Notes: generated by a model from the sequence alone, not told the origin. A DNA stretch of 64,000 nucleotides from Acholeplasmataceae bacterium (GCA_012522345.1 JAAYKO010000040.1:386-64385); one strand, 5' to 3'; shown: positions 4,429 to 39,490, numbered from the stretch's first letter. Made by a program: numbers and translations.

Positions 4429-4980
4429 CTATTTTATTAGAAAGGCCAAAGCCTGCTTAATCATCTCTTCAATTGGTAAGGTATTATCAATTCTTTTTAT
4501 TGCTTTATTGATTTCTGTCCTAGAGTAACCTAAAGAAGATAGCGCCTCAATCACTTCGCTAGTTTGAAGGTTGATTATAACAACCTCTTTTGCCAGTTTA
4601 CCCTTTAAATCCAAAATAATTTGTTGAGCACTTTTAGGACCGATACCAGGAAATTTTGTTAAGTACTTTACATCTTCAACTTCAATTGCATAAATTATTT
4701 TATCTGGTTCTCCACTTGCCAAAATTGAAAGCGCACTTTTAGGACCAATGCCACTAACGCTAATTAATTTAATAAAAAGATCTCGTTCTTCTTTTGAGAG
4801 AAATCCATAAAGATTATTGATGTCTTGTCTTACATAGTGATGCGTAAAAATTGTAACTTCATTTTCTAGCTGATAGCGATAACTATTAGGAGTGATAACT
4901 AAATAGCCAATGTCGTTATTTTCAATAATTACAAATGTTGGTTCAACACCTTTAATGACACCTTTTATATATCCATACAT
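4429..4980 (-). CDS. ruvA: Holliday junction DNA helicase subunit RuvA
   Basis: 183 aa. N-terminus MYGYIKG, plus the HhH repeats SVSGIGPKSALSIL and FPGIGPKSAQQI. Adjacent to ruvB. Confidence 0.92.
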   Translation of the reverse strand: MYGYIKGVIKGVEPTFVIIENNDIGYLVITPNSYRYQLENEVTIFTHHYVRQDINNLYGFLSKEERDLFIKLISVSGIGPKSALSILASGEPDKIIYAIEVEDVKYLTKFPGIGPKSAQQIILDLKGKLAKEVVIINLQTSEVIEALSSLGYSRTEINKAIKRIDNTLPIEEMIKQALAFLIK

Positions 4981-5144
4981 TTTATCAACCTCTTTTACTA
5001 TTATATCATTTTTAAAATGTTCTTTGTTGAGAATCTTACCTAGTTTAGTTTAAGTAACTATTTCAAATTAATTCCTTGTTTTATGATAACTAGTGATGTT
5101 TTGTTTATTTAGTCACATATAATTATACCAAATAACAACAGATA

Positions 5145-5153
5145 TGTTATAAT
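5145..5153 (+). promoter_or_regulatory. Extended -10 promoter element (TGtTATAAT) for the coiled-coil gene
   Basis: TGTTATAAT lies about 27 nt upstream of the strong RBS AAAGGAGGG. The -35 region is weak. Confidence 0.4.
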
Positions 5154-5179
5154 TATTAGAGAAAAGGAGGGACATTTAA

Positions 5180-8100
5180 ATGACTGAGATTGCAAAAAAC
5201 TATCTTACTTCTCAACTCAAGCGTTTGGATGAGCTTTTTAATAATGTCCCTACCGCAAAACAGGCTTGTATCGACTTAAATCATACCTTTAAAGATACAG
5301 TTAATCAAATTGAATCCTTAAAAAAGCAAATTGAAATGTTTGATGCTGAGTTTAATGCTGCTCAAATTGAGATTATTAAAAGTCGCCATCTCTCAGTACA
5401 ACAAATTGAAAACAATTATCAGCAAGCAATTATTAGCCAAAATGATTATTATCAAGTTGAATTTGGCAAATTACCAATTCGACAAAAAGAAAATCACCAA
5501 AAAACTCAAAAAGCGATATTAGATTTAATAAAAGACCGCCGCGCCTACGGGAGTTTGATTCAAAAGGAAATTGCGGGATATAAGCGTGATAAAGCCGCAA
5601 ATGAGCAGAGTCTGGAAAAATCATTAGCTGAAAAAAAAGATAATTATTTGACTGTTCTCAGTACACTTTATGATAAGAAAACAAGCGAAACCTTTAAAAT
5701 TAACGCGAGTTATCATGAGTTGCTAACTGATTATCACCATGAAAATAAAACTCGCTTAACTCAAGAAACACTTCAACTTAATGAACAAGACCAAGTCCTT
5801 GATGAATCATTAAAATTTCATGAAAAGGACAATGTCATTGCTAGGCAAGTGTATTTTAACACCTTAACCAAGTTAAACAATAAAATAACTCAAACGCAAA
5901 ATCTATATAAGAAAATATTGAAGAAAATTGAAAAAACTTATCAAACAAAAATTGAGCAAGCTTTAAAAGAACTCGAAGCAAAAAAAGCTGAAATTGATGA
6001 GCAGACTTTAGAAATTCAAAATAATTTTGAAACTGCATTTAAACAAATTGATAACAAAAGTGATCAATTAAAAATTGAGTCAAACGAGGAAGAGCTTAAA
6101 CTTAAAAACAAATATAATCGCGATGTAACCGCGATTAATATTGAATTTCATAAGCAAAAAGATTCACATGATCAAAATTTAATTGATTTAAAGGCAGAAT
6201 ATGATAAAGCTGTCGGTCTAAATATCGATTACAAAAGAGCAGTTCGCAGTTTTAGAAATGATTATCAGCGACGCAAAAACAAAATGTTAAAGGTCTTTAG
6301 AGTTTTAGAGTCAGAGACTGAAAAACAGTTGAAAGTTCTCAAGAAAAAATATTTAGAACAAAGAATTGCCCAGAGCAAAGAAAATATTAAAAAACATGAA
6401 CAATACCGTTATCAATTGAACCTTTTAGATAGAAACAAAAACAACTCTTTAAAGTATAAAAAAGGGCTTTTTAATCATCATCAACAAAATTATGATAAAC
6501 AAATCTGTATTTTCAACAAAAAGCGAGAATTAGAAGAAAATATTATTGATGGTCGAATGCAACTTGAAATTATTCCACTCGAAAGCCAAGCATCTCTTGC
6601 AAACCATATTTATGATCTAGAAGCGAACTATCAAAGTGTGGAACAAAACTTTTGGCGTGAAAACAATCAGCGGCAAAAAGCTTTAATTGAAAAGAAATCA
6701 AAACATGCCGAAATTGATTTGATGAAAAACCGAGACAAAATTAATATAAAACATAATTATGATATTAAAATTGTTGAAATAAACAACTATTTAGACATGG
6801 AAACAGAAAAGAACAATTTAGTTTTATTAAAACGAGTTCTCCGTTATGATAAACAGATTAATGAAGCCGATTACAATATCAATGCTTTAAAAAGCAAACA
6901 TAAACAAGAACTTAAAGCTGAAAAAAGTCTTACTGAGGAAGAAAAACTTAATACCTTACAGAAAATTACTGATGAAGAGTTTAATTTAAAGGGAGCTCTT
7001 TTAAGTGCTGCCTTAGCCCACAGCATTAATAAATCAAAACTAACTTACCAAAGAGAGTTGGGCTTTGTAACTACAAAAGAGACAGTAAAAAGTGCTAGCA
7101 TCGATTACGCACGACAACAAAAAACACTCTCAAGTTATTTCCAAGTACTCAATCTTATTTGGCAAGAATCAAAAAGAATTCTTATGGCTATTAAAGATAG
7201 TTATTATTTAATCAATGACACAAAAGAGTTTAACGAAGCACTTAATTCATTTTATGAACTTCTTCTCCTGCAAAAAGATTTGCGCGATAACACAATGGAT
7301 TTTGTTAGAGAAAAAATCATCGCTCAAATGAAAACTAAAATTGAGGAACTAACTATCTCAAAATATCAAAAACAACACCAAAGCGTTTTAGATGAATATG
7401 AGAAAAATAAAAAAGCAACTTTTGAAGAAACTGCTAATTTAGAAAAGCAAATTATTGCCTATCGTGATGAAGCGAGCGTATTACAACAAAAAGCAGCAAC
7501 CCTTGAAAATCAAAACGATTTGGTTTTGCAAAATATAAAACTTATTAGAAACCAAGTCAGACAATTAAAGCGAACTAAAATCAATAAGCAACGCACCAAA
7601 ACTATTAAAAATCTTAGGACTCAGGTTAAAGCTTTTAAAAAGCAAATAGAACAAACAAATAGCGAAATAAAGCTTTTAAACTATCGAGTCGAACAAACCA
7701 AGACCCGGATTTTGATGATTGACAATTTCATCCAGTTGCAGGATACAAAATTAATAGAAATTGAAAAAAATAAAGAAAAGGCAGAAAAACAATTAAAAAT
7801 AAACCAATATTATGAAGGCGAAATCTATTATAAAAGCATTCAAAGCATTACAGATTATTATAAAAATTTCAAACAGGAAACTACCGGCTTTTTAATAACA
7901 GTTGACAATTTGTTTGACAAGTTAAAATCTAGTAAAACTACTAAAAAATCATTTCAAACACAATACCTCCGTTTACAAAGAGTTTTTAATCGGCAGCAAT
8001 CTGTTAATTCCTATTTTCAGCAAAAAATTGGCACTTTAATTGAAAAACAATATTTAGCCATCAATACTGAGCAAGAAAAGATTTCAGTCAATTTAAAACA

Positions 8101-12423: not shown

Positions 12424-12702
12424 TTATCCTTCATAGACTGATACTTGAGTTCTTGCTTTACCAAGACGCTCATACTTTACAATTCCCGAAATTTTCGCAA
12501 ACAATGTATCATCGCCACCTTTACCAACATTTTGGCCTGGATGAACTTTTGTTCCGCGTTGACGATAAATAATTGCTCCAGCTTTAGCATACTGACCATC
12601 AGATAGCTTTAAGCCCAGTCTTTTTGAATGAGAGTCGCGTCCGTTTCTTGTGGAACCTGCACCTTTTTTAGATGCAAATAATTGAATGTTTAATTTTAAC
12701 AT
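12424..12702 (-). CDS. rpmA: 50S ribosomal protein L27 with an N-terminal propeptide
   Basis: [24 protein letters not shown]... This is the Firmicute-type 9-aa extension ending in F, before the mature ASKKG end that Prp generates. Confidence 0.95.
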
Positions 12703-12703
12703 A

Positions 12704-13009
12704 TTATCGCTCCTTTTGATATTTAATGAAGTGGGGATACTGTTTTTCTAATTCTTTAAGGGTCCAAACTAAATTTTGGATAATAACTTTAATATTATTA
12801 GTCTGTTTTAAAACTTTAAGGTGAAAATATCCATCCGCTTCTTTTAATTCAACATTTTCTTTTTCTTTTAATCTTTCAATTAAATTGGCAGATAAAATAA
12901 CTGCTGTAGACACACTTGCACAAACTATATCTTCTCCTAGTTCAGCAAATTCTGCATGTCCTTTAACCTCAACTTCGCTGAGATCTTCTTTGACTTGGTA
13001 AATAATCAT
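12704..13009 (-). CDS. prp: Ribosomal-processing cysteine protease Prp
   Basis: 101 aa between rplU and rpmA. Contains the GHAEF...VCASVS His/Cys motifs typical of Prp/YsxB. Confidence 0.85.
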
Positions 13010-13011
13010 AA

Positions 13012-13320
13012 TTACACATTAATCGCTTCGATAACTAACTTTGTGTATGGTTGACGGTGACCTTGTTTGCGGTGATAGTTTTTCTTCGCTTTAAACTTAT
13101 AAACAATAATCTTTTTTGAACGACCTTGTTTAAGTACTTTCGCAACAACATTTGCACCTTCTACTAGTGGCTTGCCGATGATTGTTTTAGGACCACCGAC
13201 TAATAAAACTTCTTCAAAAGTAACTTTTTGATCAACTTCCACATCAAGTTTTTCAACAAATATTTCTTGACCAACTTCAACTTTTATTTGTTTTCCACCT
13301 GTCTTAATAACTGCATACAT
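13012..13320 (-). CDS. rplU: 50S ribosomal protein L21
   Basis: [14 protein letters not shown]... The ATG at 13320 is preceded by the RBS AAGGAGGTG. The track start at 13350 adds 10 non-conserved residues. Confidence 0.95.
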
Positions 13321-13339
13321 TAAAAACACCTCCTTATAA

Positions 13340-21796: not shown

Positions 21797-21995
21797 AAAA
21801 AAAACGCCCTTAGAAAATCTAAGGACGTTAACTCAACGTGGTACCACCTTAGTTCTGTAAATATTACAGCACTTATTATGTCAATAACGGAACAACCCGT
21901 GCCCTCTTACTCAACTTCAGAAGACCACTCCCTAGTGACTTCAACAAAACAGTTTGTATGCCCTCTCACCACACGAGCACTCTCTTGAACTCTTA
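21797..21995 (-). promoter_or_regulatory. T-box riboswitch with a valine (GUC) specifier
   Basis: On the minus strand I read:
- the AGAGAG box (21977-21987)
- GGUGAGAG
- the specifier loop GAA-GUC-A (GUC is the complement of 21937-21939)
- the T-box sequence AAGGUGGUACCACG (21837-21850)
- the terminator AACGUCCUUAG-AUUUU-CUAAGGGCGUU plus U8 (21797-21829). Confidence 0.85.
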
Positions 21996-22047
21996 TTTTG
22001 CTTACTACTCTAGTTCATCGCTTTATTTAAGTATAATCTAAATGATT

Positions 22048-36449: not shown

Positions 36450-36480
36450 AAAAAAAACACTTTCTAAATTGCGAAAGTGT
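36450..36480 (-). terminator. Intrinsic terminator ending the riboswitch-antiporter-PII-like unit
   Basis: The minus strand reads ACACTTTC-gcaattta-GAAAGTGT followed by T7, about 9 nt after the stop at 36489. Confidence 0.8.
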
Positions 36481-36488
36481 CTTTTAAA

Positions 36489-36839
36489 TTATTTTTTGGC
36501 TTTTAAAGGATAAATTCCTGAAACTGGCAAAGTGAACATAAAACCAATTGTTTTTTGCCGAGAATTTTCTAAAGCACTTTGAATATCATCAATTAAGTCA
36601 CAAACAATTTTTTCATCTGGAATAACACTAAAAATTGTCTTTGAACTTGCAGGGCTTTGAGCTACGCTTTGCGCAAATGGACCTCCCAGCAACATTCCTA
36701 AGCCTTCATATTCCAAAACCGCTTTTGCCATTCCTTCACTATCGAGAATTGTCGCTCCACGTACTTTATGTTTTATAAAGAGTTGTAAAATAGTCTCTTG
36801 ATAACTTAAATCATTTAAAACAATAAATAAGATTTGCAT
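36489..36839 (-). CDS. PII-like-fold small protein, paralog 1 (116 aa)
   Basis: MQILFIVLNDL...VRGATILDSEGMAKAV...SKTIFSVI...GFMFTLPV. The residue pattern suggests beta-alpha-beta x2. It is about 40% identical by eye to the 38392..38721 product. The ATG at 36839 is 2 nt after the antiporter stop, and its RBS GGAAGGAG lies inside the antiporter's 3' end. Confidence 0.55.
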   Translation of the reverse strand: MQILFIVLNDLSYQETILQLFIKHKVRGATILDSEGMAKAVLEYEGLGMLLGGPFAQSVAQSPASSKTIFSVIPDEKIVCDLIDDIQSALENSRQKTIGFMFTLPVSGIYPLKAKK

Positions 36840-36840
36840 A

Positions 36841-38163
36841 TTATGCTCCTTCCATTTCAATACCTTCAATTGAGGAAATTAAATCCAATTGATCAAGACC
36901 ACCAACCTCACCCGCTTTTGTAATAGCAATTTTGGCAAATATTGGACCACTAGTCTCAAAAAATAATATACTTAACATAATAACCGTTGAAATCACAGGA
37001 TAAAAGTCATACATTTGAGCGAATACTACGACTAATAGCCCCAGTGAAATTCCCCCTTGTGGCAATAAAGCTATACCTAAATATTTTTTTACTGCTGGTT
37101 TTTGTTTTGTAACATGTGAGCCTGTATAAGCTCCTAAATATTTTCCGCCTGCTCTAGCGATTATAAAGACTAAAGCCAACACAATAATTAAAGCTGAGTT
37201 TTTCAATATTCCAAGATTTAACGAAGCTCCTGCTAAAGTAAAAAACATCACATAAAACGGAGTCGTAAAATCATTGACACTACTAAAGATTTGGTCACTT
37301 CTTTTGGCGTAGTTAACTATTATCATTCCAGTTGCCATATTAGCTAAAAGTGCTGAAAGAGCCAAGTTAAAGGTTTTAAAATAATTATTAATTATAAAAA
37401 TACTTCCCGTAGTAATCAAGACAGCAATAATTGTTAAGATTTGTAAATCATCTCGTGTTTTTTCCTGCTTACCGATAGCTTTTGTTAGTAAAAAGCCAAT
37501 AAGAATTCCCAAAAGTAATGATCCGATAACTTCAATAAAAGGTTTCGCAATCATTAAAAATAAGGGTATTGTTGATGTGGTGACTAAGATTTGGGCAAAT
37601 GAAATGAAAAAACCAAAGACTATAATTCCGTATATATCATCGAGTGCCGTTATTGGCAACACTTTTTTTGTAAGTGGTCCATAAGCTCGATATTGTCTCA
37701 TTACCATCAGAGTTGCGGCAGGTGCAGTGGCAGCACTCATTGAAGCCAAAACTAATCCGACTGCAATATTATTTTTACTAAAGGGTTGATAACCATTCAT
37801 AATTGGAGCTGGTTTAGGGATGAAAAAAAGTGCTAAAAACACGATTGCAACAACAAATCCAACTTCAAATATTGTAATTGTGTTGATATCTTTGCCACTC
37901 TTTCTCAAAGCCTTTAAATTAAATTCACTACCGATTGAAAAGGCAATAAACGAAAGTGCTATTTCACTAATAAACCTTAAAGTATCTTGATCTTCAGTTG
38001 TTATAAAGCCTTGATATCCTGGAATAATAATCCCAAGTGAAGGTCCAAGCAGTAATCCTAAAACCAAATATCCCGATACATTGGGCAGTTTTAGCTTTTT
38101 AGCAATTAAACCACCAATAAATCCAATCAGTAATATAATTGCTGCTTTAAACAATAAATCCAT
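36841..38163 (-). CDS. CPA2-family cation:proton antiporter, membrane domain only
   Basis: 440 aa. N-terminus LLIGFIGGLIAKKLKLPNVSGYLVLGLLLGPS is typical of Kef/NapA-type exchangers, with about 12 TM helices. The short tail (about 25 aa) has no RCK/TrkA domain. Confidence 0.85.
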   Translation of the reverse strand: MDLLFKAAIILLIGFIGGLIAKKLKLPNVSGYLVLGLLLGPSLGIIIPGYQGFITTEDQDTLRFISEIALSFIAFSIGSEFNLKALRKSGKDINTITIFEVGFVVAIVFLALFFIPKPAPIMNGYQPFSKNNIAVGLVLASMSAATAPAATLMVMRQYRAYGPLTKKVLPITALDDIYGIIVFGFFISFAQILVTTSTIPLFLMIAKPFIEVIGSLLLGILIGFLLTKAIGKQEKTRDDLQILTIIAVLITTGSIFIINNYFKTFNLALSALLANMATGMIIVNYAKRSDQIFSSVNDFTTPFYVMFFTLAGASLNLGILKNSALIIVLALVFIIARAGGKYLGAYTGSHVTKQKPAVKKYLGIALLPQGGISLGLLVVVFAQMYDFYPVISTVIMLSILFFETSGPIFAKIAITKAGEVGGLDQLDLISSIEGIEMEGA

Positions 38164-38185
38164 TAACTAAATCCTCCTTTAAAAG

Positions 38186-38210
38186 TAAAAAAAGCATAAA
38201 ATATACGCTT
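38186..38210 (-). terminator. Expression-platform terminator of the c-di-AMP riboswitch
   Basis: RNA AAGCGUA-UAUUU-UAUGCUU followed by U6, immediately 3' of the aptamer P1 strand and 5' of the RBS AAAGGAGGA. Confidence 0.7.
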
Positions 38211-38324
38211 AATAACTCCGATGAGGTTAGCTGCCGGGTTAAGAACATTAAGTATCCTTTCATAAGCTACTATGATTCACCCCTATTATTGGGTTCCCCA
38301 CTCATTTTCATGATTAGGAGAGTT
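38211..38324 (-). promoter_or_regulatory. ydaO/yuaA-type c-di-AMP riboswitch aptamer
   Basis: The minus-strand RNA reads CUCCUAAUC-AUGAAAAUGAGU-GGGGAACCCA-AUAAUA-GGGGUGAAUCA-...-AACCCGGCAGCUAACCUCAUCGGAG. This lines up with the B. subtilis ydaO leader as I remember it: CGCUUAAUC...GGGGGACCCA...GGGGUGAAUCC...AACCCGUCAGCUAACCUCGUAAGCG. P1 pairing is CUCC/GGAG. Confidence 0.85.
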
Positions 38325-38333
38325 ACTATGATA

Positions 38334-38362
38334 ATATTAGCATAGACACTTTAGATTATCAA
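38334..38362 (-). promoter_or_regulatory. Sigma-A-type promoter for the riboswitch-antiporter transcript
   Basis: The minus strand reads TTGATA, a 17-nt spacer, then TAATAT, about 10 nt upstream of the aptamer. Confidence 0.55.
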
Positions 38363-38391
38363 CTCGATAAATTGCTTTTTTACAAAAGATA

Positions 38392-38721
38392 TCATAAGAC
38401 AACGTTTACAGGGATTGTAAACATATAACTTATCGCTTTTTTTCCAGAATAATCTAATACTTGTCTAATTGTTTTCGTAATTATATTAACACTCTCTTTT
38501 GCAACAACAGAAAAAATTGTCTTTGAGACTTCCGCCTCTGTTGGAATTGCTCGATCAATTGGACCTTTCATTAAATAACTCAGTTTAGCAGAATCCCTTA
38601 ATGCCTTAGCCATACCGTAGGAGTCAAGGATTGTAGCTCCCTTAACATTTAATTTTACAAACACTTCTAATAAATCATCTAAAAAATCTAAATCATTTAA
38701 AACAATAATAATCGCTTCCAT
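38392..38721 (-). CDS. PII-like-fold small protein, paralog 2 (109 aa)
   Basis: MEAIIIVLNDL...VKGATILDSYGMAKAL...SKTIFSVV...SYMFTIPV. The ATG at 38721 follows the RBS GGGGAG. It lies upstream of, and outside, the riboswitch-controlled unit. Ends with TGA. Confidence 0.55.
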   Translation of the reverse strand: MEAIIIVLNDLDFLDDLLEVFVKLNVKGATILDSYGMAKALRDSAKLSYLMKGPIDRAIPTEAEVSKTIFSVVAKESVNIITKTIRQVLDYSGKKAISYMFTIPVNVVL

Positions 38722-38740
38722 AGGCTCTCCCCTTCTCTTA

Positions 38741-39490
38741 TCAAAGGTCAAAATAGGCGTTAAAAGTAAAAGCTCTTTCTTTTTTTGTTAAATTAAAAAT
38801 TTGATAAGTGTTGGTTTTTTCATTTAATCCTTTCTTTACTACAAACCGATCAGATTTTTGCATTTCTTTATGAAAATATAACTCTATTCGCTTTAAGTTT
38901 TTTAATTCTTTAATTTGACTTTCACTAAAACAATCATAAACAAATTCACTATACCGCAAATTATTAACATGTCCTAGCCCATCGAGATGACTGTTTTCAA
39001 TTTGACCTTCTTTTATGTCAACAAACTCAAGATTTTGTTTAAATGTAGGATTAGCTTCAACTAAGTGCGTTAACTCTTCAGTTAAAATCTCAAAAGGTAG
39101 CTGTCTTTGTTTATAAATTGATCTATTTTCTAAATCAAGTAATACAGAATATGAAGCTCCTTTACAAATTGTTTGATTATTTTTATCGACAACATTATAT
39201 TCTCTGCGGAAAAAGGGACCTCTTCTTCCTGAATACCATGTACTACCGATTAATTGTTGGGATTCAGTGAGAGGTTTTTCAATAACAAGACTCATTGACA
39301 CTAAAACCCAAGCATATTTATTAGCTAAAACGACTCCTACGCCTTGATCGGTGCTTGAGAGATGTTTATCTGCTAAAATGTTAAAAAGTGCTTGATATCC
39401 GTATGGCTTAAGCTCTAAATTTTCATTAAAGTGCTCGAATGGTGGTTCTAAAATATATTTTTTTCGCATTTCGCTTTTCATCTTTTTCAT
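38741..39490 (-). CDS. Acyl-ACP thioesterase family protein
   Basis: 249 aa double-hotdog-like protein. The DGLGHVNNLRYSEF motif and overall layout resemble the FatA/B-type bacterial thioesterases. Confidence 0.65.
   Translation of the reverse strand: MKKMKSEMRKKYILEPPFEHFNENLELKPYGYQALFNILADKHLSSTDQGVGVVLANKYAWVLVSMSLVIEKPLTESQQLIGSTWYSGRRGPFFRREYNVVDKNNQTICKGASYSVLLDLENRSIYKQRQLPFEILTEELTHLVEANPTFKQNLEFVDIKEGQIENSHLDGLGHVNNLRYSEFVYDCFSESQIKELKNLKRIELYFHKEMQKSDRFVVKKGLNEKTNTYQIFNLTKKERAFTFNAYFDL

What the first reader, a model, noticed from the sequence alone, without database searches (positions are those of the whole stretch)
36450..38751. c-di-AMP riboswitch controlling an RCK-less CPA2 antiporter flanked by two paralogous PII-like mini-proteins
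Seen in sequence:
- A well-conserved ydaO-type aptamer (38211-38324, minus strand) has its own promoter and a terminator-type expression platform. It sits directly upstream of a 440-aa CPA2 cation:proton antiporter.
- The antiporter ends about 25 aa after its last TM helix. It therefore lacks the RCK/TrkA-C domain through which related transporters usually sense nucleotides. For example, S. aureus CpaA binds c-di-AMP through its RCK_C domain (established knowledge).
- Two proteins of about 110 aa bracket the unit instead. They share the motifs IVLNDL, GATILDSxGMAKA, SKTIFSV and MFTxPV, and have a beta-alpha-beta x2 residue pattern like PII/DarA-type signal proteins.
- Paralog 1 starts 2 nt after the antiporter stop, and its RBS lies inside the antiporter's 3' end. 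It is therefore riboswitch-controlled.
- Paralog 2 lies upstream of the riboswitch promoter, in the thioesterase transcript, and escapes RNA-level control.

Inference: the mini-proteins may be detachable ligand-sensing subunits that replace RCK, possibly binding c-di-AMP or another nucleotide. That would give two-tier (RNA plus protein) control of cation/proton exchange. I do not know of a described system with this layout.
Basis: partly seen in the sequence, partly recalled or inferred. Interest (0 to 1): 0.72.

Follow-up and report, generated by a model that had tools for sequence, protein, structure and literature searches.

The report
Riboswitch-controlled antiporter with PII-like partner
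A c-di-AMP-sensing RNA switch controls a two-gene operon for a cation/proton antiporter and a small PII-type signal protein; this pairing recurs across several bacterial phyla and I found no description of it, so it points to an unstudied way of regulating ion export.

Summary
A c-di-AMP riboswitch (RF00379, 83.9 bits against a threshold of 38) lies at 38201-38330 on the minus strand. It has a promoter-like site and an intrinsic terminator. Downstream are a 440-aa CPA2 antiporter with no RCK domain and, 1 nt after its stop codon, a 116-aa protein. A 43%-identical paralog lies upstream of the riboswitch.

The small proteins are divergent members of the P-II family, not DarA/PstA. 42 of 46 relatives match PF00543 and none matches PF06153. 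The AlphaFold model finds PII, GlnK, PotN, SbtB and CPII as its best matches. The canonical PII signature motifs are absent.

The layout is conserved. In 76 of 79 loci from one-genome-per-species contigs, CPA2 lies directly upstream of the PII-like gene. 48 of the 65 loci with upstream DNA carry the riboswitch. The hosts include Acholeplasmatales, Clostridia, Tissierellia, Halanaerobiales, Anaerolineaceae and a treponeme.

The best reading is that the PII-like protein is a dedicated regulatory partner of the antiporter, analogous to GlnK-AmtB and SbtB-SbtA. Its ligand is unknown, and c-di-AMP binding is untested. The upstream paralog is a duplicate confined to close relatives.

The terminator starts inside the pseudoknot strand and no antiterminator was found. 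This riboswitch subclass may therefore be an ON switch, but that is unresolved.

The parts
38334..38362 (-). Promoter-like site: -35 TTGATA (38362-38357), 17-nt spacer with TG, -10 TAATAT (38339-38334)
   Evidence: Consensus scan and coordinates. This is a consensus match only; the transcription start was not measured.
38201..38330 (-). c-di-AMP riboswitch aptamer (RF00379, ydaO/yuaA class)
   Evidence: 83.9 bits against a gathering score of 38, E 4.6e-18, full-length model. 48 orthologous copies align, with 91.8% of cells paired.
38247..38252 (-). Pseudoknot 5' strand CTTAAT, in the loop of the last aptamer hairpin
   Evidence: Pairs with 38213-38208. Across 48 sequences the helix is 96.5% paired, and 3 of its 6 pairs show compensatory AU-to-GC changes.
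38208..38213 (-). Pseudoknot 3' strand ATTAAG. Its last 3 nt (AAG) are also the first 3 nt of the terminator stem.
38187..38210 (-). Intrinsic terminator of the expression platform: stem AAGCGTA/TATGCTT followed by T7
   Evidence: -5.6 to -6.0 kcal/mol, falling to -0.3 without the three pseudoknot nucleotides. The same arrangement occurs in 38 of 48 orthologous leaders.
38173..38180 (-). Ribosome-binding site AAAGGAGG of the antiporter gene
   Evidence: Read directly from the sequence.
36841..38163 (-). CPA2-family cation:proton antiporter, 440 aa, with no RCK domain
   Evidence: PF00999 E 6e-28 over residues 13-402, and TIGR00932 E 9e-15 (below its curated cut-off, 54.9 vs 238.3 bits). The D175-D176 pair is kept in 74 and 73 of 76 orthologs, and R337 and K341 are invariant.
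36489..36839 (-). PII-like mini-protein 1 (116 aa). It is translationally coupled to the antiporter gene and is the conserved partner.
   Evidence: AlphaFold pLDDT 81 with a beta-alpha-beta, long loop, beta-alpha-beta topology. The top Foldseek hits are all PII-family proteins. CPA2 lies immediately upstream in 76 of 79 loci.
36450..36484 (-). Terminator at the end of the operon
   Evidence: 12-bp stem, -12.9 kcal/mol, followed by T8. The consensus scan listed this inverted repeat on the + strand (36457-36480); the T8 run is on the minus strand.
38392..38721 (-). PII-like mini-protein 2 (109 aa), a lineage-specific paralog lying upstream of the riboswitch promoter
   Evidence: 43% identical to mini-protein 1. 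PF00543 E 0.071. Orthologs occur in only 6 of the 79 loci.
38741..39490 (-). Acyl-ACP thioesterase gene directly upstream of mini-protein 2
   Evidence: PF01643 and PF20791. The same thioesterase-then-mini2 order is found in L009, L048 and L050.

Best explanation
The conserved unit is a bicistronic operon under a c-di-AMP riboswitch. It encodes a CPA2 cation:proton antiporter with no built-in RCK sensor, and a small protein of a divergent branch of the P-II family.

Shown:
- The RNA is a bona fide c-di-AMP aptamer, followed directly by an intrinsic terminator.
- The small protein has the PII fold, with an unusually long loop (residues 34-66) at the T-loop position. Most positions of this loop are conserved in the 46-sequence alignment, which is dominated by Acholeplasmatales-type relatives.
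- The antiporter and PII-like genes are adjacent, on the same strand and usually overlapping or nearly so, in almost every genome that has the PII-like gene.

Inferred:
- The PII-like protein, probably a trimer like other PII proteins, docks through its T-loop on the cytoplasmic face of the antiporter. It would gate cation/proton exchange according to a small ligand, as GlnK gates AmtB and SbtB gates SbtA.
- The ligand is unknown. An adenine nucleotide is the default guess, and c-di-AMP is possible.
- c-di-AMP therefore sets how much of the pair is made, and the PII-like protein sets how active the antiporter is.

The direction of the RNA switch is not settled. The terminator's left arm begins with the last three nucleotides of the pseudoknot strand, and I found no antiterminator. 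That suggests c-di-AMP may turn expression ON, which would fit K+ export at high c-di-AMP. Every characterised c-di-AMP riboswitch is OFF, so I put this at about 50%.

The second paralog is a recent duplicate in one Acholeplasmataceae lineage. It is expressed from a different promoter and its role is unknown.
For: - Riboswitch: RF00379 at 83.9 bits. Its pseudoknot is supported by covariation.
- PII identity: the AlphaFold model has pLDDT 81. The best Foldseek PDB hits are PII, GlnK, GlnZ, PotN, SbtB and CPII at E about 3e-5 and probability 1.0. 42 of 46 relatives hit PF00543, best E 2.6e-7.
- Coupling: CPA2 lies immediately upstream on the same strand in 76 of 79 loci, across several phyla. 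There is a 1-nt gap in the window. L066 carries three tandem CPA2-PII pairs. L081 has the order exchanger, PII, PII, exchanger, and L085 has PII then exchanger.
- Riboswitch linkage: present in 48 of the 65 loci that have upstream DNA. In an independent sample of 112 metagenomic c-di-AMP riboswitches, 8 precede a CPA2 gene, and 5 of the 6 evaluable ones also carry the PII-like gene.
- No RCK partner.
- Conserved family-specific loop and motifs.
Against: - There is no direct evidence of a physical interaction. A complex could not be modelled with these tools.
- The canonical PII nucleotide-binding signatures are absent in all 46 relatives, so ligand binding itself is not assured.
- The T-loop region of the model has low confidence (pLDDT 52-72).
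- More distant family members are not always next to an exchanger: P0300 lies next to a radical-SAM gene, and P0348 has none upstream.
- 17 of 65 loci lack the riboswitch, including Acholeplasma laidlawii, so RNA control is optional.
- One riboswitch-CPA2 locus (L142) has no PII-like gene.
- The transported ion (K+ or Na+) is not determined.
Confidence: 0.6

Rival explanations
1. The mini-proteins are c-di-AMP receptors of the DarA/PstA or SbtB kind. c-di-AMP would then act twice, on the RNA and on the protein that gates the antiporter.
For: - They have a PII-type fold, and SbtB, a PII-like protein reported to bind c-di-AMP, is among the Foldseek hits (PMC8654305, found).
- The operon is under a c-di-AMP riboswitch in 48 of 65 loci.
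- Known CPA2 systems (CpaA, KhtTU) are c-di-AMP targets through RCK_C (PMC10117811). That domain is missing here.
Against: - 0 of 46 relatives match PF06153, the DarA/PstA family.
- No DarA/PstA structure is among the top 50 Foldseek hits.
- Nothing in the sequence identifies a c-di-AMP pocket.
- 17 of 65 loci have the pair without a riboswitch, so the pair is not strictly tied to c-di-AMP.
Confidence: 0.2
2. The mini-protein is an ordinary nitrogen- and energy-sensing PII (GlnB/GlnK type), or a general PII that happens to lie next to the antiporter gene. In that case it has no specific role in ion transport.
For: Some relatives are named 'P-II family nitrogen regulator' by their sources and carry precomputed PF00543 hits. 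The fold matches GlnB and GlnK.
Against: - The PII T-loop and B-loop signature motifs are absent in all 46, while the E. coli GlnB control matches both (patterns from memory).
- The window proteins score below Pfam's gathering score.
- The neighbour is CPA2 in 76 of 79 loci.
- The loop is about 10 residues longer than the GlnB T-loop and has its own conserved sequence.
Confidence: 0.05
3. The mini-protein is not a signal transducer. It would be a structural or assembly factor, or a small-molecule or ion carrier with a ferredoxin-like fold (as discussed for CutA), that the antiporter needs for stability or insertion.
For: - The canonical nucleotide-binding residues are missing.
- Tight translational coupling is also typical of obligate subunits.
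- The family is fairly small (542 clusters at 50% identity).
Against: - The best structural matches are signalling PII proteins.
- Much of the family-specific conservation lies in the T-loop and at the base of the cleft, where PII proteins bind ligands and targets.
- One riboswitch-CPA2 locus lacks the PII-like gene (L142), so the antiporter can exist without it.
Confidence: 0.12
4. On the RNA part only: the riboswitch is a conventional OFF switch. c-di-AMP would promote termination, so the antiporter pair is made only when c-di-AMP is low, for example for Na+ extrusion or K+ handling under hyperosmotic stress.
For: - Natural c-di-AMP riboswitches are described as OFF (PMC11963983; PMC9337991).
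- Without the three shared nucleotides, most terminators keep a hairpin plus U-tract (median -4.75 kcal/mol).
- A leader in front of a lysine-2,3-aminomutase-like gene (L129), which is expected to be repressed by c-di-AMP, has the same abutting design.
Against: - No antiterminator pairing was found for the terminator's 5' arm.
- The OFF switch validated in Dehalobacter, and the leaders in front of KtrA, KimA-like, OpuAC and aminomutase genes, have a spaced terminator whose 3' arm or loop is complementary to the pseudoknot tail. The tail windows compared were longer for the spaced leaders (23 nt) than for the abutting ones (10-14 nt), which by itself favours stronger predicted duplexes in the spaced group.
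- Three leaders (L049, L015, L009) place the whole pseudoknot strand in the left arm of a hairpin followed by a U-run.
Confidence: 0.5

Closest known systems
GlnK-AmtB and SbtB-SbtA (PII or PII-like protein encoded next to, and plugging, its cognate membrane transporter); also PotN with the PotABCD spermidine transporter
   Same: A small PII-fold protein is encoded in the same operon as a transporter. The T-loop position carries the family-specific conserved sequence. The Foldseek hits include GlnK, SbtB (7r32, 7r2y) and PotN (7o4x).
   Different: - The partner is a CPA2 cation:proton antiporter, a pairing I could not find described.
- The T-loop is about 10 residues longer and is predicted to be partly helical.
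- The canonical ATP-binding B-loop and the uridylylation motifs are absent.
- The operon is under a c-di-AMP riboswitch.
- The interaction itself has not been shown.
c-di-AMP-regulated CPA2 K+/H+ antiporters: S. aureus CpaA (fused RCK_C), B. subtilis KhtTU(S), Streptomyces CpeABC
   Same: A CPA2 transporter is linked to c-di-AMP signalling, and in KhtTU and CpeAB the regulator is a separate soluble subunit encoded in the operon (PMC10117811).
   Different: - In those systems c-di-AMP acts on the protein through an RCK_C domain. Here there is no RCK domain or RCK gene.
- The c-di-AMP sensor identified here is the RNA leader.
- The soluble subunit is PII-like.
- The antiporter has no match among PDB chain sequences by phmmer, even at E up to 10.
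Characterised c-di-AMP (ydaO) riboswitches in front of kimA, ktrAB, kdpFABC, rpfA and ablA
   Same: The aptamer class is the same (RF00379) and includes the regulatory pseudoknot. Transcription is controlled through an intrinsic terminator.
   Different: - Those leaders control uptake or synthesis genes and are OFF switches.
- In the sample examined they have a terminator 43-72 nt after the anchor motif, with complementarity between the pseudoknot tail and the terminator's 3' arm or loop.
- Here the terminator starts inside the pseudoknot strand and has no detectable antiterminator.
- This abutting design is also seen in front of Mrp-type antiporter genes (L180, L188).
DarA/PstA (PF06153, PII-like c-di-AMP receptor)
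   Same: A small protein with a ferredoxin-like beta-alpha-beta x2 fold, in an organism that signals with c-di-AMP.
   Different: No sequence similarity to PF06153 in any of the 46 relatives. DarA/PstA genes are not reported to pair with CPA2 genes (my own knowledge).

Membership tests
Rfam RF00379 c-di-AMP riboswitch | Covariance-model score at or above the curated gathering score, over the full-length model | tested here: met
   83.9 bits against 38, model positions 1-134.
Rfam RF00379 c-di-AMP riboswitch | Pseudoknot between the last hairpin loop and the 3' tail, kept by compensatory changes | tested here: met
   96.5% of cells paired, and 3 of 6 pairs change on both sides across 48 sequences. 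The changes follow clades, so they represent few independent events.
Rfam RF00379 c-di-AMP riboswitch | Binds c-di-AMP and changes gene expression | not testable with these tools
   Needs in-line probing, or transcription or reporter assays.
CPA2 cation:proton antiporter (PF00999 / TC 2.A.37) | Na_H_Exchanger transmembrane domain above the Pfam threshold | tested here: met
   98.2 bits against 26.2, residues 13-402.
CPA2 cation:proton antiporter (PF00999 / TC 2.A.37) | Paired aspartates in the ion-binding helix (the DD motif of CPA2, from established knowledge of NapA and Kef) | tested here: met
   D175 is kept in 74 of 76 orthologs and D176 in 73 of 76. Assigning them to the ion site is by analogy only.
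RCK-regulated CPA2 systems (CpaA, KefC, KhtTU) | A fused RCK/KTN domain, or an adjacent gene for an RCK protein | tested here: not met
   No TrkA_N or TrkA_C hit in the 440-aa protein. No KtrA-like ORF in the 64-kb window, and only 2 of 79 loci have one, about 5 kb away (a single-query phmmer search, so sensitivity is limited).
P-II family (PF00543; GlnB/GlnK) | PII fold: double beta-alpha-beta with a T-loop between beta2 and beta3 | tested here: met
   Model secondary structure E2-8, H11-23, E30-33, loop, E67-73, H76-89, E99-105. All of the top 50 Foldseek PDB hits are PII or PII-like proteins.
P-II family (PF00543; GlnB/GlnK) | Pfam model score above the gathering score | tested here: not met
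   Mini-protein 1 has no hit. Mini-protein 2 scores 13.9 bits against 25. 42 of 46 relatives hit at E up to 1, best 2.6e-7. This is a divergent branch rather than a core member.
P-II family (PF00543; GlnB/GlnK) | Signature motifs of the T-loop (Y-[KR]-G-[AS]-[AE]-Y) and the B-loop ([ST]-x3-G-[DY]-G-[KR]-[IV]-[FW]-[LIVM]) | tested here: not met
   0 of 46 match either motif, while the E. coli GlnB control matches both. The patterns and the control sequence were written from memory.
P-II family (PF00543; GlnB/GlnK) | Homotrimer that binds ATP/ADP (and 2-oxoglutarate) in the clefts between subunits | not testable with these tools
   No multimer prediction or binding assay is available.
DarA/PstA c-di-AMP receptor (PF06153) | Sequence match to the CdAMP_rec model | tested here: not met
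   0 of 46 relatives at E up to 1.
DarA/PstA c-di-AMP receptor (PF06153) | Binds c-di-AMP | not testable with these tools
   Needs DRaCALA or ITC.
Transporter-coupled PII-like proteins (GlnK-AmtB, SbtB-SbtA type) | Gene adjacent to, and co-oriented with, the gene of the transporter it regulates, conserved across taxa | tested here: met
   76 of 79 loci, and 5 of 6 evaluable loci in the independent sample.
Transporter-coupled PII-like proteins (GlnK-AmtB, SbtB-SbtA type) | Ligand-dependent physical binding to the transporter through the T-loop | not testable with these tools
   A complex could not be modelled. The single-sequence model of the antiporter failed (pLDDT 42).

The most novel reading that the evidence does not exclude
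The PII-like protein is the ligand-gated cytoplasmic plug or activator of a CPA2 antiporter. That would make this another transporter-PII pairing, alongside GlnK-AmtB, SbtB-SbtA and the PotN-PotABCD association, and an RCK-independent way of regulating cation/proton exchange.

In addition, the leader would belong to a subclass of c-di-AMP riboswitches that are natural ON switches. The ligand-stabilised pseudoknot would withhold the base of the terminator stem. High c-di-AMP would then induce cation export at the RNA level, mirroring what it does to CpaA and KhtTU at the protein level.
Probability: 0.3. Interest if true: 0.85.

Novelty: new variant of a known kind. Interest (0 to 1): 0.68.

Why it matters
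c-di-AMP is a central regulator of potassium and osmotic balance in many bacteria, especially Gram-positive ones. Its known links to CPA2 antiporters run through RCK_C domains.

This module, found in Acholeplasmatales, several Clostridia lineages, Halanaerobiales, an Anaerolineaceae MAG and a treponeme MAG, has no RCK domain. It combines an RNA sensor with a PII-type protein instead.

If the partnership is real, three things follow:
- The GlnK-AmtB and SbtB-SbtA principle extends to cation:proton antiporters.
- A set of several hundred 'hypothetical' or 'P-II nitrogen regulator' annotations gains a function.
- There is a tractable system for asking what signal besides c-di-AMP gates ion export. 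Cultured hosts include Paracholeplasma vituli and Acholeplasma equifetale, which have the riboswitch, and A. laidlawii, which does not.

If the leader is an ON switch, it would be the first natural c-di-AMP riboswitch of that polarity that I know of. It would also be a ready-made positive biosensor scaffold, something that has so far had to be engineered (PMC11963983).

Tried and rejected
- Antiporter structure: I submitted the single sequence instead of an alignment. The model was unusable (pLDDT 42, pTM 0.25), so no fold search or docking was possible. That was my mistake.
- Sequence search of the antiporter against PDB chains: no hit, even at E up to 10. A profile of the PII-like family against PDB gave only one weak partial PII hit (E 0.48).
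- Gene-fusion evidence: P0268 is a PrmC-like protein fused to a PII-like domain. P0272 and P0288 are CPA2 fragments joined to truncated PII-like sequence. All three look like read-through or chimeric gene calls, so I did not count them.
- Antiterminator search: folding the leaders up to the end of the terminator's 5' arm gave no consistent partner. Manual searches for alternative pairings were inconclusive.
- My automatic pseudoknot finder was too noisy. I replaced it with the terminator's position relative to the CCGNCAGCTAA anchor.
- A second weak model hit in L048 (27.7 bits) lies inside a coding region and has no Rfam support. I rejected it.
- Literature: seven full-text searches for PII-like with CPA2, antiporter, kefB or c-di-AMP riboswitch found no description of this pairing. 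Nelson 2013 and Block 2010, which list the gene associations of the ydaO motif, are not held. I could not check whether they list cation antiporters.
- Ordinary GlnB/GlnK and DarA/PstA identities were considered and rejected, as described under the rival explanations.

Full report
**What is there**

The window comes from an Acholeplasmataceae MAG. Mini-protein 1 is identical to a protein from such a MAG (GX149_02595).

On the minus strand the order of features is as follows:
- An acyl-ACP thioesterase gene (38741-39490).
- A 109-aa ORF, mini-protein 2 (38392-38721).
- A promoter-like site (38362-38334).
- A c-di-AMP riboswitch aptamer (38201-38330; RF00379, 83.9 bits against a gathering score of 38).
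- A short terminator hairpin with T7 (38210-38187).
- An RBS, then a 440-aa CPA2 antiporter gene (36841-38163).
- One nucleotide later, a 116-aa ORF, mini-protein 1 (36489-36839).
- A strong terminator (36484-36450).

The antiporter's Pfam domain covers residues 13-402. It has no RCK or TrkA domain. Its tail after the last hydrophobic segment is about 28 aa. The two mini-proteins are 43% identical (E 8e-23).

**What the mini-proteins are**

Neither window protein reaches Pfam's threshold. Mini-protein 1 has no hit, and mini-protein 2 scores E 0.071 against PF00543.

The wider family places them clearly:
- 42 of 46 diverse relatives hit PF00543 (best E 2.6e-7), and none hits the DarA/PstA family PF06153.
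- An AlphaFold model built on that alignment (pLDDT 81) has the PII topology, with a long segment at residues 34-66 where the T-loop sits.
- Its best matches among solved structures are all PII or PII-like proteins: GlnB, GlnK, GlnZ, PotN, SbtB and CPII (E about 3e-5, probability 1.0).
- The classical PII signatures (the uridylylation T-loop and the GDGK B-loop) are absent from all 46 (patterns from memory, with an E. coli GlnB control).
- The family has its own near-invariant motifs: LND, RGATI[LI]DSxGMAxA, EGLxxLLxGPF, SKTIF and IGFMFxxPVSGIYP.
- Many positions of the long loop are conserved in that alignment, which suggests a conserved binding surface.
- The family is modest in size: 542 clusters at 50% identity with E up to 1e-3.

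**Is the neighbourhood meaningful?**

A scan of one genome per species found at least 540 encoded relatives, and the best 79 loci were kept.
- In 76 of the 79 loci a CPA2 gene lies immediately upstream on the same strand. Of the three exceptions, one is an ortholog of mini-protein 2 and two are stand-alone genes.
- The hosts include Acholeplasmatales, Izemoplasmatales, Erysipelotrichia, Lachnospiraceae and other Clostridia, Tissierellia, Halanaerobiales, an Anaerolineaceae MAG and a Treponemataceae MAG.
- L066 has three tandem CPA2-PII pairs.
- A more distant relative sits in an exchanger, PII, PII, exchanger cluster, and another precedes its exchanger gene.
- Two of the most distant relatives checked have no exchanger beside them.
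- With a covariance model built from six aptamers, 48 of the 65 loci with enough upstream DNA carry a c-di-AMP riboswitch directly in front of the CPA2 gene.
- In an independent sample of 112 usable metagenomic c-di-AMP riboswitches fetched by a DNA pattern, 8 precede a CPA2 gene. Of the 6 with enough downstream sequence, 5 carry the PII-like gene after it.
- No KtrA-like RCK protein is encoded in the window. Only 2 of the 79 loci have one, about 5 kb away on the other strand.

The conserved unit is therefore riboswitch, CPA2 gene and one PII-like gene.

**The second paralog**

Orthologs of mini-protein 2 occur in only 6 of the 79 loci, all close Acholeplasmataceae relatives.
- In three of them the gene follows the thioesterase gene, as in the window.
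- In four loci (L004, L006, L048, L050) an opposite-strand gene of about 280 aa lies between it and the riboswitch. From its sequence it looks like an NAD-dependent dehydrogenase, but I did not scan it. That gene is missing in the window.

It is a recent duplicate and not part of the general design. Its loop differs from that of mini-protein 1 at positions that are nearly invariant in the main family (E45, G46, P54, F55).

**How it probably works**

By analogy with GlnK-AmtB and SbtB-SbtA, I infer that the PII-like protein is the dedicated cytoplasmic regulator of the antiporter, and that its conserved long loop is the contact element. This rests on gene order, translational coupling and fold. 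No interaction was tested.

The ligand is unknown. Nothing in the sequence supports it.

The antiporter keeps the paired aspartates typical of CPA2 (D175, D176) and invariant R337 and K341. Whether it moves K+ or Na+ cannot be told.

**The expression platform**

The pseudoknot between the last hairpin loop (CTTAAT) and the 3' tail (ATTAAG) is supported by covariation. It is 96.5% paired, and 3 of its 6 pairs show AU-to-GC exchanges.

In 38 of 48 leaders the terminator stem begins with the last three nucleotides (AAG) of that tail. The median hairpin energy falls from -8.55 to -4.75 kcal/mol when those three are withheld. In the window it falls from -5.6 to -0.3. In three leaders the whole pseudoknot strand lies in the left arm of a hairpin followed by a U-run. 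I found no conserved antiterminator.

Other c-di-AMP leaders look different:
- The experimentally validated OFF switch of Dehalobacter has its terminator about 75 nt downstream, and the terminator's loop and 3' arm are complementary to the pseudoknot tail (sequence from the supplement of PMC9337991).
- The sampled leaders in front of KtrA, a KimA-like permease, OpuAC, an ABC ATPase and lysine-2,3-aminomutase genes have the same spaced design, with strong predicted pairing between the tail and the terminator's 3' arm.
- That comparison is confounded: the tail windows were 23 nt for the spaced leaders and only 10-14 nt for the abutting ones.

The abutting design also occurs before an Mrp-type antiporter operon (L180), a SulP transporter gene followed by an MrpE-like ORF (L188; the latter judged from its sequence only), a CitMHS-family transporter and a complex-I-like subunit. 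It also occurs before one aminomutase-like gene.

An aptamer that overlaps the left shoulder of a terminator is usually read as an ON switch. That would make biological sense if this is a K+ exporter induced at high c-di-AMP. Two points argue the other way. The overlap is only three nucleotides. And all characterised c-di-AMP riboswitches are OFF (PMC11963983, PMC9337991). I leave the direction at about even odds.

**Comparison with what is known, and novelty**

The separate ingredients are known:
- c-di-AMP riboswitches.
- CPA2 antiporters under c-di-AMP control through RCK_C (CpaA, KhtTU, CpeAB; PMC10117811).
- PII-like proteins paired with transporters.

Two things appear to be undescribed:
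- A PII-like protein paired with a CPA2 antiporter.
- That pair placed behind a c-di-AMP riboswitch.

Seven full-text searches found nothing on either. Subscription-journal papers and the two original ydaO gene-association papers could not be read.

I class this as a new variant of a known kind. There is an open chance that the riboswitch subclass has inverted polarity.

**Verdict**

Interest is 0.68.

Noticed in passing
window 21818-22027 (-): A full-length T-box leader (RF00230, 141.7 bits against a gathering score of 93). It is unrelated to the finding, and I did not examine the downstream gene.
   Followed up: no
L066 5416-10345: Three tandem copies of the CPA2 plus PII-like gene pair in a Tissierellia MAG, with no c-di-AMP riboswitch detected.
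   Followed up: partly
L081 2727-6188 (also L082, L083): A cluster in the order Na_H_Exchanger, PII-like, P-II, Na_H_Exchanger. That is two pairs in mirrored gene order, followed by a ZIP transporter gene.
   Followed up: no
L180 (riboswitch near 12578; MnhE-like gene at 12668-13327) and L188 (SulP gene at 4516-6069, then an MrpE-like ORF): c-di-AMP riboswitches with the same CTTGGG/CCAAG pseudoknot and a terminator starting at AGCG lie in front of Mrp-type Na+/H+ antiporter genes and a SulP transporter gene. The abutting-terminator subclass may be a general leader for ion-exporting systems.
   Followed up: partly
Metagenome loci L088-L207: Among sampled c-di-AMP riboswitches that have a detectable terminator there are two designs. 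In one the terminator is spaced (starting 43-72 nt after the CCGNCAGCTAA anchor) and has complementarity between the pseudoknot tail and the terminator's 3' arm; these precede K+ or osmolyte uptake and synthesis genes. In the other the terminator abuts the pseudoknot (starting at +27 to +31). 65 of the 112 usable riboswitches had no detectable terminator; I did not examine those leaders further.
   Followed up: partly
L004 2600-3481, L006 7565-8410, L048 7512-8360, L050 5994-6827 (all minus strand): In related genomes a conserved gene of about 280 aa, which looks like an NAD-dependent dehydrogenase, lies between the mini-protein 2 ortholog and the riboswitch. It is absent at the corresponding place in the window (38331-38391).
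   Followed up: no
P0272 and P0288 (protein representatives): Gene calls that join a CPA2 fragment directly to a truncated PII-like sequence. They are probably deletions, frameshifts or assembly chimeras at the gene junction, and I did not count them as fusions.
   Followed up: partly
L057 8600-8983 and L075 10001-10351: Two PII-like family members with no adjacent CPA2 gene. The one in L057 lies convergent to an ORF that looks like a heavy-metal P-type ATPase (judged from its sequence only).
   Followed up: no
L129 (leader in front of a lysine-2,3-aminomutase-like gene): The 3' tail carries two AGGG repeats (TAGGGAGGGTA), so the pseudoknot loop could pair in two registers. One register would free the terminator's 5' arm and the other would occupy it. 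This could be how an abutting terminator still gives an OFF switch.
   Followed up: no
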